Shown here piece by piece: positions 49,511-50,002 of a DNA stretch of 64,000 bases. Where the stretch lies: the IMG/VR virus record IMGVR_UViG_3300018080_000099, positions 64,001-128,000 of that record; one strand, 5' to 3'. Each line of letters begins with the position of its first letter. Position 1 is the stretch's first letter. Below the pieces are notes generated by a model. It did not search any database and was not told the origin of the DNA. It worked only from the letters and a program-made list of their open reading frames with translations. The translations under genes and the position numbers were made by a program. Origin of the DNA: a virus.

Positions 49511-50002
49511 TCAACTCCTCTCGTATATATAGACCATGACATCCTTGTTGTCAAAAACTTCGTTTATCATTCCTTCAATCTTTTTCCAGTTTCCATGAGC
49601 TAACCCTGCACCAATCTTCGGGAAAGCTATTGTCTTGTCAAAGAAAGACTGTTTAATCTTTGGCAGGACTTTGGCAAAAGCATCATAGTCAAATGGTATT
49701 TTCGGAACATTCTTATCCCAACCTGACCTCCACTTATGACTGAAGATGTCAAATTGAGTATATGCATTGACTATGGTGACGAGTTTATCAGGATAGAAAA
49801 TGTTCTGTCCTGTCCACTGTGTAAAGTTTCCAAGCTTCGTAGCATCACCCTTTCTTGTTCGTTTGTCTACATCAAACGCTTCAGAGTAATATTTTGCCAC
49901 TTGGAGGGCTATTCCTGCTCCCATGTTACAAATGCAGTTACAGCCGTGTACGATGACATCTTCACCACCTTTGAAAATGTCAAAGTGTATATATTTAATC
50001 AT
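49511..50002 (-). CDS. macro-domain (ADP-ribose-binding / processing) protein
   Basis: DVIVHGCNCICNMGAGIALQVAKYY and IAFPKIGAGLAHGNW blocks. Confidence 0.7.
   Translation of the reverse strand: MIKYIHFDIFKGGEDVIVHGCNCICNMGAGIALQVAKYYSEAFDVDKRTRKGDATKLGNFTQWTGQNIFYPDKLVTIVNAYTQFDIFSHKWRSGWDKNVPKIPFDYDAFAKVLPKIKQSFFDKTIAFPKIGAGLAHGNWKKIEGMINEVFDNKDVMVYIYERS

What the first reader, a model, noticed from the sequence alone, without database searches (positions are those of the whole stretch)
49511..50002. Macro-domain protein inside the tRNA island
The GCNC...GAGIA and IAFPKIGAG blocks indicate a macro domain that binds or removes ADP-ribose. Plausible roles include reversing ADP-ribosylation-based defences (for example DarT) or processing ADP-ribose-1''-phosphate produced by tRNA splicing or repair chemistry. 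It sits next to the tRNA genes.
Basis: partly seen in the sequence, partly recalled or inferred. Interest (0 to 1): 0.55.

Follow-up and report, generated by a model that had tools for sequence, protein, structure and literature searches.

The report
Ordinary phage macrodomain counter-defence gene
The ORF is a real stand-alone macrodomain (ADP-ribose-processing) enzyme of a jumbo phage, a divergent member of a very common phage family whose studied members disarm bacterial ADP-ribose/NAD-based defences, and its place among tRNA genes looks like a lineage habit, not a functional link.

Summary
It is a macrodomain. Pfam Macro falls 0.4 bits short of its cut-off, but PHROG 335 gives E=7e-42, a family profile hits the solved macrodomains BT1257, SCO6735, DarG and TARG1 at 1e-17 to 1e-13, and the AF2 model (pLDDT 89.6) matches DarG, TARG1 and Poa1p.

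The family is common: homologues occur in about 2400 phage records. Three phage macrodomains scoring in the same PHROG 335 have been characterised:
- T4 Tk.4/AdfM, anti-DarTG2, shown genetically.
- Vibrio phage Gary Adpp, an ADP-ribose-1''-phosphate phosphatase that counters aRES through NARP1.
- PhiKZ gp104/AdfM, a true DarG-like enzyme.

The window protein is equally distant from Tk.4 (30% identity) and Adpp (32%). Like both, it has Gln where DarG and TARG1 have the catalytic Lys, and it keeps the Poa1p-type HxCNC loop.

No Adps or Namat partner is in the window, and closer relatives sit in DNA-replication modules. I therefore favour AdfM-like removal of ADP-ribose from DNA (about 0.45) over Adpp-like phosphatase activity (about 0.28).

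The tRNA link is not supported. The phage's tRNA ligase is RtcB, and 17 of 18 loci from other lineages have no tRNA within 5 kb. Verdict: new member of a known kind, low interest.

The parts
49511..50002 (-). Macrodomain ORF, 163 aa (ATG 50002-50000, TGA 49513-49511). A single-domain protein with no C-terminal extension.
   Evidence: ORF list and translation; PHROG 335 E=7e-42; PDB profile hits; AF2 pLDDT 89.6; Foldseek top hits DarG, TARG1, BT1257 and Poa1p.
49907..49948 (-). Loop-1 ADP-ribose-binding/catalytic motif H19-G-C-N22-C-I-C-N26-M-G-A-G-I-A32. G20, C21, N22, C23, G28, G30 and A32 are invariant in 80 homologues; H19 is present in at least 90%.
   Evidence: Alignment A2. It aligns with Poa1p 'HSCNCNGSWGGGIA', where H19 matches Poa1p H23 and N26 matches S30. 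It aligns with Mtb DarG 'NTVNCVGVMGKGIA'. N22 matches the Asn whose mutation (N23A) reduces PhiKZ AdfM activity, judged from motif position (inference).
49754..49768 (-). N79-A-Y81-T82-Q83 strand-end motif. Gln83 occupies the position of the catalytic Lys of DarG (K80) and TARG1 (K84). A lineage-specific, low-confidence loop insertion follows at about residues 85-100.
   Evidence: HMM alignments to 5m3i ('NFPTKKHW') and 4j5r ('LITKK'); MAFFT alignment. N79, Y81, T82 and Q83 are invariant in 80 homologues. pLDDT is 73 and 55 for residue blocks 81-90 and 91-100. The insertion is seen only in the window protein, P0002 and P0009.
49586..49624 (-). Loop-2 diphosphate-binding motif F-P128-K-I-G131-A-G-L-A135-H-G-N-W139. 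Ala135 sits where TARG1 has its catalytic Asp125.
   Evidence: Alignments; direct reading of the sequence.
50009..50013 (-). Shine-Dalgarno-like AAGGA, 6 nt upstream of the ATG, inside the 12-nt spacer that follows the CCA end of tRNA-Cys.
   Evidence: Reverse-complement read of 49990-50030...GGTGCTCCA TAAGGAATCTAT ATG.
50015..50108 (-). tRNA-Cys(GCA), 94 nt, immediately upstream on the same strand. Listed as context only. No - strand terminator-like site lies between 51000 and 48700, so co-transcription with the tRNAs is likely (inference).
   Evidence: ARAGORN; Rfam tRNA 45.5 bits; promoter/terminator scan, where counts do not exceed the shuffled expectation.

Best explanation
The gene encodes a stand-alone catalytic macrodomain of the phage Tk.4(AdfM)/Adpp family. 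This family lies in the TARG1/DarG/Poa1p-like branch of macrodomains and is covered by PHROG 335.

Loop 1 (HGCNC..GAG) and loop 2 (PKIGAG) would bind ADP-ribose, and the enzyme would hydrolyse whatever is attached to C1'' of the distal ribose. It cannot use the Lys/Asp mechanism of DarG and TARG1, because Gln83 and Ala135 replace those residues. It keeps the Asn and His of the Poa1p/Adpp-type loop.

It is made early, probably from the long tRNA-mRNA transcript. I consider its most likely job to be counter-defence: removing ADP-ribose that a host DarT2-type toxin places on thymidines of single-stranded phage DNA, as inferred for T4 Tk.4/AdfM. This would let replication of the jumbo genome continue.

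Shown here: the fold, the family, the motif conservation, the gene context, and the lack of a conserved partner gene. Inferred: catalytic activity, the substrate, and the counter-defence role.
For: Identity and fold.

Relation to T4 Tk.4: 30% identity over the full length, E=4e-23. The window protein shares Tk.4's HGCNC, GDxTKLG, N-x-Y-T-Q and IGAG motifs. In an NJ tree it groups with Tk.4 to the exclusion of Adpp in 76% of 200 bootstraps. Tk.4 is the single T4 gene needed for growth on a DarTG2 host, and a clean knockout is sensitised.

Gene context: like Tk.4 it is a solo gene. No Adps or Namat homologue is in the 64-kb window (tblastn E>=0.1). The small flanking ORFs are not conserved in a relative whose macro protein is 60% identical.

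Context of closer relatives: they sit in DNA replication or nucleotide-metabolism modules. P0014 (58% identity) is two genes downstream of gp32 (one 78-aa ORF between them) and near DnaB. P0031 (52%) lies between PhoH and RNR, near DNA pol III alpha. Salmonella phage 7-11 has it among ThyX, a DNA-binding protein and DNA polymerase. In T4-like phages it lies between vs and tk.

Counter-defence setting: the same island carries a bona fide anti-defence gene, Apyc1, at 107.6 bits against a cut-off of 50.
Against: - No assay exists for this protein, and T4 Tk.4 has only genetic evidence.
- The window protein is just as similar to Gary Adpp (32% identity, 73 bits), which is a proven ADPR-1''-P phosphatase. 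Tk.4 and Adpp are themselves 35% identical, so the family is not cleanly split. Clade monophyly has only 47.5% (Tk.4 side) and 20.5% (Adpp side) bootstrap support.
- The catalytic Lys used by DarG is absent.
- The DNA-acting enzyme that has been shown biochemically, PhiKZ AdfM, is a true DarG-like protein (PADLOC DarG 133 bits). The window protein resembles it only weakly (48 bits; blastp E=0.001 over 52 aa).
- Only 64 kb of a roughly 264-kb genome was visible.
- The host, and whether it carries DarTG2, is unknown.
Confidence: 0.45

Rival explanations
1. Adpp-like ADP-ribose-1''-phosphate phosphatase. The enzyme converts ADPR-1''-P, made when RES-domain defences (aRES) phosphorolyse NAD+, into ADPR. 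This would either detoxify the product or feed NAD+ rebuilding.
For: - 32% identity to Vibrio phage Gary Adpp, and Cilsick gp173 is 98.7% identical to it. Purified Adpp converts ADPR-1P to ADPR and is needed to overcome aRES.
- The loop-1 motif HxCNC..GxG is the Poa1p/Adpp type, with the Poa1p H23 position conserved.
- T4 Tk.4 itself has long been annotated as an 'A1pp phosphatase'.
- The phage invests in NAD+ supply: PnuC at 4160-4720 and a NadR-like gene at 8903-9880.
- A bacterial homologue (P0089) sits in an NrtR / ADP-ribosylglycohydrolase / NAPRTase / NAD-synthase cluster.
Against: - Characterised Adpp works as the middle gene of an Adps-Adpp-Namat operon. Deleting the phosphatase or inactivating any of the three genes abolishes the phenotype.
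- No Adps or Namat is in the window, and no ORF there exceeds 490 aa.
- ADPR is not a substrate of a PnuC/NadR (NARP3-type) route.
- Only about 15% of NARP1 operons carry a macro gene, so most of the roughly 2400 phage homologues are solo genes like this one.
- The window protein has the T4-type YTQ and IGAG residues, not the YGQ and IGCG seen in the NARP1-linked proteins.
Confidence: 0.28
2. tRNA/RNA-directed role. Either it clears ADPR-1''-P or Appr>p left by Tpt1-type tRNA splicing or repair, or it removes ADP-ribose placed on tRNA or RNA by host toxins. This would explain its position in the tRNA island.
For: - The gene is flanked by tRNAs here and in the related 242-kb phage and its relatives.
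- The window also encodes RtcB, a SpoU methylase, PTH2 and a DUF2828/DUF7788 protein.
- RNA ligase genes lie within a few kb of homologues in Mydovirus, Thalassavirus, Pakpunavirus and the P0014 contig.
- Yeast Poa1p, a structural neighbour, serves tRNA splicing.
Against: - RtcB sealing leaves no 2'-phosphate, so no Tpt1 product is expected (established RtcB chemistry).
- No Tpt1/KptA (PF01885) hit appeared among the roughly 60 ORFs scanned.
- Outside this lineage, 17 of 18 homologue loci have no tRNA within 5 kb, and the one exception has them 2.7 kb away.
- The island is a mosaic of HNH endonucleases and unrelated accessory genes, including Apyc1.
- No family member has been shown to act on RNA.
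Confidence: 0.1
3. A non-hydrolytic or differently directed macrodomain. Possibilities include a binder or sponge for ADPR-derived immune signals, an O-acetyl-ADPR deacetylase, or an eraser that tunes the phage's own ADP-ribosyltransferases (as T4 has Alt, ModA and ModB).
For: - The DarG/TARG1 catalytic Lys and Asp are both missing.
- JGI auto-annotation of homologues reads 'O-acetyl-ADP-ribose deacetylase'.
- Macrodomains are versatile on soluble and conjugated ADPr (PMC9503650).
Against: - The Asn and His of loop 1 and the whole ADPr-binding cleft are invariant or near-invariant across 80 homologues. The two characterised Gln-bearing relatives are functional, one of them as a purified enzyme.
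- No ART or sirtuin was found among the scanned window ORFs.
Confidence: 0.07

Closest known systems
T4 Tk.4 = AdfM (anti-DarT factor Macrodomain), bioRxiv 10.1101/2025.11.20.689424
   Same: Single-domain protein of about 155-163 aa. Hits PHROG 335 over the full length. Shares the HGCNC, KLG, N-x-Y-T-Q and IGAG motifs, with Gln at the DarG-Lys position. It is a solo gene with no toxin or NARP1 partner, in a large virulent phage.
   Different: Only 30% identical. T4's copy lies between vs and tk, with no tRNA in the roughly 4.5-kb stretch fetched. The window protein has an extra loop of about 12 residues after NAYTQF. The T4 function is known only from genetics.
Adpp of Vibrio phage Gary (KNV71_gp137), the ADPR-1''-P phosphatase of NARP1-AP, bioRxiv 10.64898/2026.01.28.702374
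   Same: 32% identical. Scores in the same PHROG family, has the same Poa1p-like HxCNC loop, and has Gln at the Lys position.
   Different: Adpp is the middle gene of an Adps-Adpp-Namat operon, and none of that is present here. Adpp has HQCNC, YGQ and IGCG where the window protein has HGCNC, YTQ and IGAG.
PhiKZ gp104 = AdfM (chimallivirus DarG2-like macrodomain), PMC13309987
   Same: A jumbo-phage stand-alone macrodomain that hits PHROG 335 and serves as a counter-defence enzyme.
   Different: gp104 is DarG-like in the strict sense. It is 37% identical to Mtb DarG, keeps the FPTK catalytic Lys, and scores 133 bits on PADLOC DarG against 48 for the window protein. The two align only weakly.
DarG antitoxin macrodomain (5M31, 5M3I), human TARG1 (4J5R), yeast Poa1p (6LFQ), and BT1257 / SCO6735 (2FG1, 5E3B)
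   Same: Same macro sub-fold. These are the best structural and profile matches. BT1257 and SCO6735 share the Gln at the Lys position, and Poa1p shares the HxCNC loop.
   Different: 18-26% identity. There is no DarT-binding C-terminal domain and no adjacent DarT. The Lys/Asp dyad of TARG1 is absent.

Membership tests
Macro domain superfamily (PF01661 clan) | Significant match to a macrodomain profile | tested here: met
   Pfam Macro scores 21.6 bits against a gathering score of 22 (E=2.2e-4), which is marginal. PHROG 335 gives E=7e-42. The family profile hits solved macrodomains at 8.5e-18 to 2.8e-13. Most homologues carry a precomputed PF01661 hit.
Macro domain superfamily (PF01661 clan) | Three-layer alpha/beta macro fold | tested here: met
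   AF2 mean pLDDT 89.6, pTM 0.86. The top 25 Foldseek matches are all solved macrodomains at probability 1.00, with TM 0.6-0.78.
Macro domain superfamily (PF01661 clan) | Conserved GxG loop 1 and P-x-I-G-x-G loop 2 lining the ADP-ribose cleft | tested here: met
   N22, G28, G30, P128 and G131 are invariant in 80 homologues.
DarG antitoxin (NCBIfam NF048014 / PADLOC DarG) | Score above the family cut-off over the full two-domain model | tested here: not met
   47.9 bits against a cut-off of 250. Only model positions 1-147 of 338 are matched. PADLOC DarG scores 48 bits, against 133 for PhiKZ gp104.
DarG antitoxin (NCBIfam NF048014 / PADLOC DarG) | Catalytic Lys in the 'FPTK' motif (K80) | tested here: not met
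   That position aligns with the invariant Gln83 in 'NAYTQ'.
DarG antitoxin (NCBIfam NF048014 / PADLOC DarG) | C-terminal DarT-binding domain and an adjacent darT gene | tested here: not met
   The protein is 163 aa and consists of the macro domain only. The neighbours are a tRNA, small ORFs and Cpn10.
Phage Tk.4/AdfM-Adpp macrodomain family (PHROG 335, Gln-type) | Full-length homology to T4 Tk.4 and Gary Adpp | tested here: met
   BLASTP against Tk.4 gives E=4e-23. Bit scores are 76 and 73 respectively. All of these proteins have PHROG 335 as their best hit.
Phage Tk.4/AdfM-Adpp macrodomain family (PHROG 335, Gln-type) | HxCNC loop, the KLG motif, and Gln at the DarG-Lys position | tested here: met
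   Alignment of 31 sequences. G20, C21, N22, C23, K56, G58 and Q83 are invariant, and H19 and L57 are present in at least 90%, across 80 homologues.
Phage Tk.4/AdfM-Adpp macrodomain family (PHROG 335, Gln-type) | Protection against DarTG2 (the AdfM phenotype) | not testable with these tools
   Needs plaque or toxicity-rescue assays. Shown only for T4 Tk.4.
NARP1-AP pathway (Adps-Adpp-Namat) | Macro gene embedded in or adjacent to Adps and Namat genes | tested here: not met
   tblastn of Gary and SRT6 Adps and Namat against the window gives a best E of 0.11 over 26 aa. Neighbour Pfam scans found none. The rest of the roughly 264-kb genome was not visible.
NARP1-AP pathway (Adps-Adpp-Namat) | ADPR-1''-P phosphatase activity | not testable with these tools
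   Requires an enzyme assay. The Poa1p H23 equivalent (H19) is conserved.
Poa1p-type tRNA-splicing by-product clearance | Co-occurrence with a Tpt1/KptA 2'-phosphotransferase and a ligase that leaves a 2'-phosphate | tested here: not met
   The ligase present is RtcB, E=7e-65. No PF01885 hit appeared among the roughly 60 ORFs scanned. This covers the window only.

The most novel reading that the evidence does not exclude
The macro gene keeps its place between tRNA genes across this jumbo-phage lineage. It appears to be co-transcribed with them, and the same genome region carries RtcB, PTH2 and a SpoU methylase. This could mean the enzyme acts on RNA rather than DNA. For example, it might strip ADP-ribose that host toxins attach to tRNA or mRNA, which would make it part of a phage tRNA-protection module. 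Alternatively, one Gln-type enzyme might cover both DarT2-modified DNA and ADPR-1''-P.
Probability: 0.08. Interest if true: 0.6.

Novelty: new member of a known kind. Interest (0 to 1): 0.2.

Why it matters
Macrodomains occur in about 56% of jumbo phages (PMC9503650), and this family is found in about 2400 sequenced phages, so its presence here is expected. The modest value lies in three points.

1. It adds a divergent, uncultured-jumbo-phage member to a family whose first functions were assigned only in 2025-2026.
2. T4 Tk.4/AdfM, Adpp and this protein all lack the DarG/TARG1 catalytic Lys and share a Poa1p-like loop. The chemistry behind 'AdfM' activity in the Tk.4 type is therefore unexplained, and the two proteins currently both named AdfM are mechanistically different.
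3. It shows that tRNA islands in jumbo phages double as parking places for counter-defence genes. Here the macro gene and Apyc1 sit about 2.5 kb apart.

Tried and rejected
- Megablast of 44-54 kb against 50,697 phage records gave no match, so the phage has no close cultured relative.
- I looked for a conserved partner next to the macro gene. The 49-aa Zn-ribbon ORF, the 47-aa ORF and the upstream 67-aa ORF have no counterpart in the relative whose macro protein is 60% identical. Only Cpn10 recurs, at 29% identity. No operon partner was found.
- I tried to split AdfM-like from Adpp-like proteins by phylogeny. The NJ bootstrap is too weak to assign a subfamily: 47.5% for the Tk.4-side clade and 20.5% for the Adpp-side clade. 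The diagnostic motifs are suggestive but inconsistent. Vequintavirinae proteins carry HGCNC and IGAG yet group on the Adpp side.
- The promoter/terminator scan found nothing above the shuffled expectation.
- TAG recoding, suggested by a CTA-anticodon tRNA, is rejected for this window. 5 of 33 supported genes end in TAG.
- Mapping invariant residues onto the AF2 model was not possible, because model coordinates are not exposed to scripts.
- The residues mutated in Adpp are given only in a figure of the preprint, so I could not compare them.

Full report
**Observation.** Window 49511-50002 on the - strand is an uninterrupted ORF of 163 aa (ATG to TGA). An AAGGA Shine-Dalgarno-like element lies 6 nt before the ATG. 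It sits in the 12-nt spacer that follows the CCA end of tRNA-Cys at 50015-50108. The window holds 47 ARAGORN tRNAs. Forty-six are on the - strand between 47.4 and 63.9 kb, and Rfam confirms 42 tRNA matches in 33-64 kb. 'Inside the tRNA island' is therefore literally true.

**Is it a macrodomain?** Yes.
- Pfam's Macro model falls 0.4 bits short of its gathering score: 21.6 against 22, E=2.2e-4.
- PHROG 335 ('phosphatase') matches the full length at E=7e-42.
- The macro half of NCBIfam's DarG model matches at E=1e-12.
- phmmer finds the solved macrodomains BT1257, TARG1/OARD1, Mtb DarG and SCO6735.
- A profile of 43 family members hits them at 8.5e-18 (BT1257), 7e-15 (SCO6735), 2.4e-14 (Mtb DarG), 2.8e-13 (TARG1) and 3e-12 (yeast Poa1p).
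- An AlphaFold2 model built on 80 homologues has mean pLDDT 89.6 and pTM 0.86. Its best Foldseek matches are the DarG macrodomains, TARG1, BT1257 and Poa1p, all at probability 1.00.

**How common is it?** tblastn finds homologues in 2390 of 50,697 phage records. All are below 60% identity, and the best is about 41%. They span T4-like phages, Vequintavirinae, felixounaviruses, pakpunaviruses, and phages of cyanobacteria, Campylobacter, Vibrio and Streptomyces. The exact protein is on metagenomic contigs of up to 264 kb. Megablast finds no cultured relative of the phage. A published survey reports macro domains in 56% of jumbo phages (PMC9503650).

**What is known about the family?** Three phage proteins that all hit PHROG 335 have been characterised recently.
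1. T4 Tk.4. I located it as the homologue lying between vs and tk, and it is 30% identical to the window protein, E=4e-23. It was the only T4 gene whose disruption was selected against on a DarTG2 host, and a clean knockout is sensitised. The authors named it AdfM and inferred, but did not assay, DNA de-ADP-ribosylation.
2. Vibrio phage Gary KNV71_gp137, named Adpp. It is the middle gene of an Adps-macro-Namat operon. The purified protein converts ADPR-1''-phosphate to ADPR, which lets NARP1 rebuild NAD+ after cleavage by aRES (RES-domain) defences. I came across this context independently: the window protein's hits in Vibrio phage Cilsick and Pseudomonas phage SRT6 lie between, or next to, 'ribose-phosphate pyrophosphokinase' and 'nicotinate phosphoribosyltransferase' genes. 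Cilsick gp173 is 98.7% identical to Gary Adpp.
3. PhiKZ gp104, also named AdfM. It removes DarT2-made ADP-ribose from DNA in vitro.

**Where does the window protein fall?** It is not a DarG in the strict sense.
- It scores 48 bits on the DarG models, against a cut-off of 250.
- It has no C-terminal DarT-binding domain and no neighbouring DarT.
- PhiKZ gp104, by contrast, scores 133 bits on PADLOC DarG and is 37% identical to Mtb DarG. It aligns only weakly with the window protein.

The HMM and MAFFT alignments place the catalytic Lys of DarG ('NFPTK', K80) and of TARG1 (K84) opposite Gln83 of the window protein ('NAYTQ'). TARG1 Asp125 falls opposite Ala135. Gln83 is invariant in 80 homologues. 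T4 Tk.4, Gary Adpp, BT1257 and SCO6735 share it.

Loop 1 is of the Poa1p type. 'HGCNCICNMGAGIA' aligns with Poa1p 'HSCNCNGSWGGGIA'. The deposited H23A and S30A mutant chains identify these positions as window H19 and N26. The family therefore uses a mechanism other than the DarG/TARG1 lysine mechanism.

By sequence, the window protein is equidistant from Tk.4 (30%, 76 bits) and Adpp (32%, 73 bits), and those two are 35% identical to each other. An NJ tree puts the window protein with Tk.4 to the exclusion of Adpp in 76% of 200 bootstraps. The Tk.4-side clade itself has only 47.5% support. At three positions it matches Tk.4 (HG, YTQ, IGAG) and not the NARP1-linked proteins (HQ, YGQ, IGCG). That rule is not clean across other lineages.

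**Context.** Adpp's described role needs Adps and Namat. tblastn with both proteins from two phages finds nothing in the window, with a best E of 0.11 over 26 aa. Pfam scans of about 60 ORFs also find none. What the window does contain:
- NAD+ supply: a PnuC transporter (4160-4720) and a NadR-like enzyme (8903-9880), the two parts of the published NARP3 route. That route starts from nicotinamide riboside, not from ADPR.
- RNA functions: RtcB (30860-32209), a SpoU methylase and PTH2.
- DNA functions: three DNA methyltransferases.
- Others: Cpn10, Hsp20, many HNH endonucleases, and Apyc1, an anti-Pycsar nuclease that lies 2.5 kb from the macro gene.

The small ORFs that touch the macro gene are not conserved in a related 242-kb phage. 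Only the macro...Cpn10 order and the tRNA setting persist there.

Closer metagenomic relatives sit in replication or nucleotide-metabolism modules. P0014 is two genes downstream of gp32 and near DnaB. P0031 lies between PhoH and RNR, near pol III alpha. The same holds for Salmonella phage 7-11 and the T4-like phages. A bacterial homologue lies in an NrtR / ADP-ribosylglycohydrolase / NAD-salvage cluster next to RtcR-RtcB.

**The tRNA question.** The gene sits between tRNAs in this lineage only. I examined 18 loci from other phage and bacterial lineages. Seventeen have no tRNA within about 5 kb, and one has three tRNAs 2.7 kb away. RtcB-type ligation leaves no 2'-phosphate (established chemistry), and no Tpt1 was detected. 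The 'by-product of tRNA splicing' reading therefore lacks its prerequisite. I read the island as a mosaic accessory region into which counter-defence genes (the macro gene, Apyc1) and homing endonucleases have accumulated.

**Conclusion.** The observation and the domain assignment are confirmed. The protein is a divergent new member of the known phage Tk.4(AdfM)/Adpp macrodomain family. It is most plausibly a counter-defence hydrolase acting at C1'' of ADP-ribose.
- AdfM-like removal of ADP-ribose from DNA, about 0.45. I favour this because the gene is solo, it leans toward Tk.4 in motifs and in the tree, and its relatives sit in replication modules.
- Adpp-like ADPR-1''-P phosphatase, about 0.28.
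- An RNA/tRNA-directed role, about 0.1.
- Other roles, about 0.07.

None of these can be settled without enzymology and the full genome. Interest is low. The one scientifically open point is how Gln-type macrodomains that lack the DarG lysine achieve the AdfM phenotype.

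Noticed in passing
window 4160-4720 (+) and 8903-9880 (+): A PnuC-type NMN/NR transporter (PF04973, E=9e-57) and a NadR-like enzyme (cytidylyltransferase-like plus AAA_28). These are the two components of the recently described phage NARP3 NAD+-rebuilding pathway, but here they lie about 4 kb apart, not adjacent to each other.
   Followed up: partly
window 52500-53312 (-): A metallo-beta-lactamase-fold protein matches Pfam Anti-Pycsar Apyc1 at 107.6 bits (cut-off 50). It lies inside the tRNA island, 2.5 kb from the macro gene, and is a second likely counter-defence gene.
   Followed up: partly
window 29836-32209 (+) and 36988-38460 (-): A SpoU-family RNA methylase lies close upstream of RtcB (E=7e-65), and a 490-aa DUF2828+DUF7788 protein lies nearby. 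Together they look like an RNA-repair set beside the tRNA island.
   Followed up: no
window 18199-19212 (+): A 337-aa ORF combines a periplasmic solute-binding domain with an ion-channel pore (SBP_bac_3, Lig_chan-Glu_bd, Ion_trans_2). This is a GluR0-like ligand-gated channel, an unusual thing for a phage to encode.
   Followed up: no
window 34202-34278 (+): A tRNA with anticodon CTA, which reads the amber codon (ARAGORN labels it tRNA-Pyl; Rfam tRNA 54.5 bits). It is the only tRNA on the + strand. TAG still ends 5 of 33 supported genes in the window, so there is no sign of TAG recoding here.
   Followed up: partly
window 50015-50108, 50348-50437, 54314-54403, 63290-63380 (-): Several tRNAs that are not normally class II are 90-94 nt long (Cys, Gln, Asp, Asn). 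This suggests introns or odd extra arms. Rfam also reports one tRNA at 59238-59317 that ARAGORN did not call.
   Followed up: no
window 43237-43878, 51833-52246, 55616-56209, 57302-57679, 60010-60456, 60925-61536 (-); 21503-22000, 24047-24577 (+): At least eight HNH endonuclease ORFs, most of them wedged between tRNA genes. This is consistent with homing-endonuclease traffic shaping the island.
   Followed up: no
window 56533-57039, 57812-59131 (-); 16179-17060, 19666-20559, 24909-25391, 26019-26636 (+): PTH2 peptidyl-tRNA hydrolase and a B12-binding radical SAM enzyme lie inside the island. Elsewhere in the window are two more radical SAM proteins, a YqeY-like protein and an HD_4 (RelA/SpoT-type hydrolase) domain protein.
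   Followed up: no
macro protein residues about 85-100 (window about 49703-49750): A loop insertion of roughly 12 residues (DIFSHKWRSGWDK...) directly follows the NAYTQ catalytic-loop position. It is found only in this protein and its closest relatives P0002 and P0009. Model confidence is low here (pLDDT 55-73). It might shape substrate choice.
   Followed up: partly
L024 (GCA_041914905.1 contig JAYSCL010000001.1), 1-10459: A bacterial homologue (44% identity) lies directly after NrtR and an ADP-ribosylglycohydrolase, beside NAPRTase, PncA-like and NAD synthase genes. It is divergent from an RtcR-Band7-RtcB operon. This gives an NAD/ADPR-metabolism context for the cellular branch of the family.
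   Followed up: no
literature versus L002:2423-2890 and PhiKZ gp104: Two papers give the same name, AdfM, to two different macrodomain types. T4 Tk.4 has Gln at the catalytic position and is Poa1p/BT1257-like. PhiKZ gp104 has Lys and is truly DarG-like. The two align only marginally (blastp E=0.15).
   Followed up: yes
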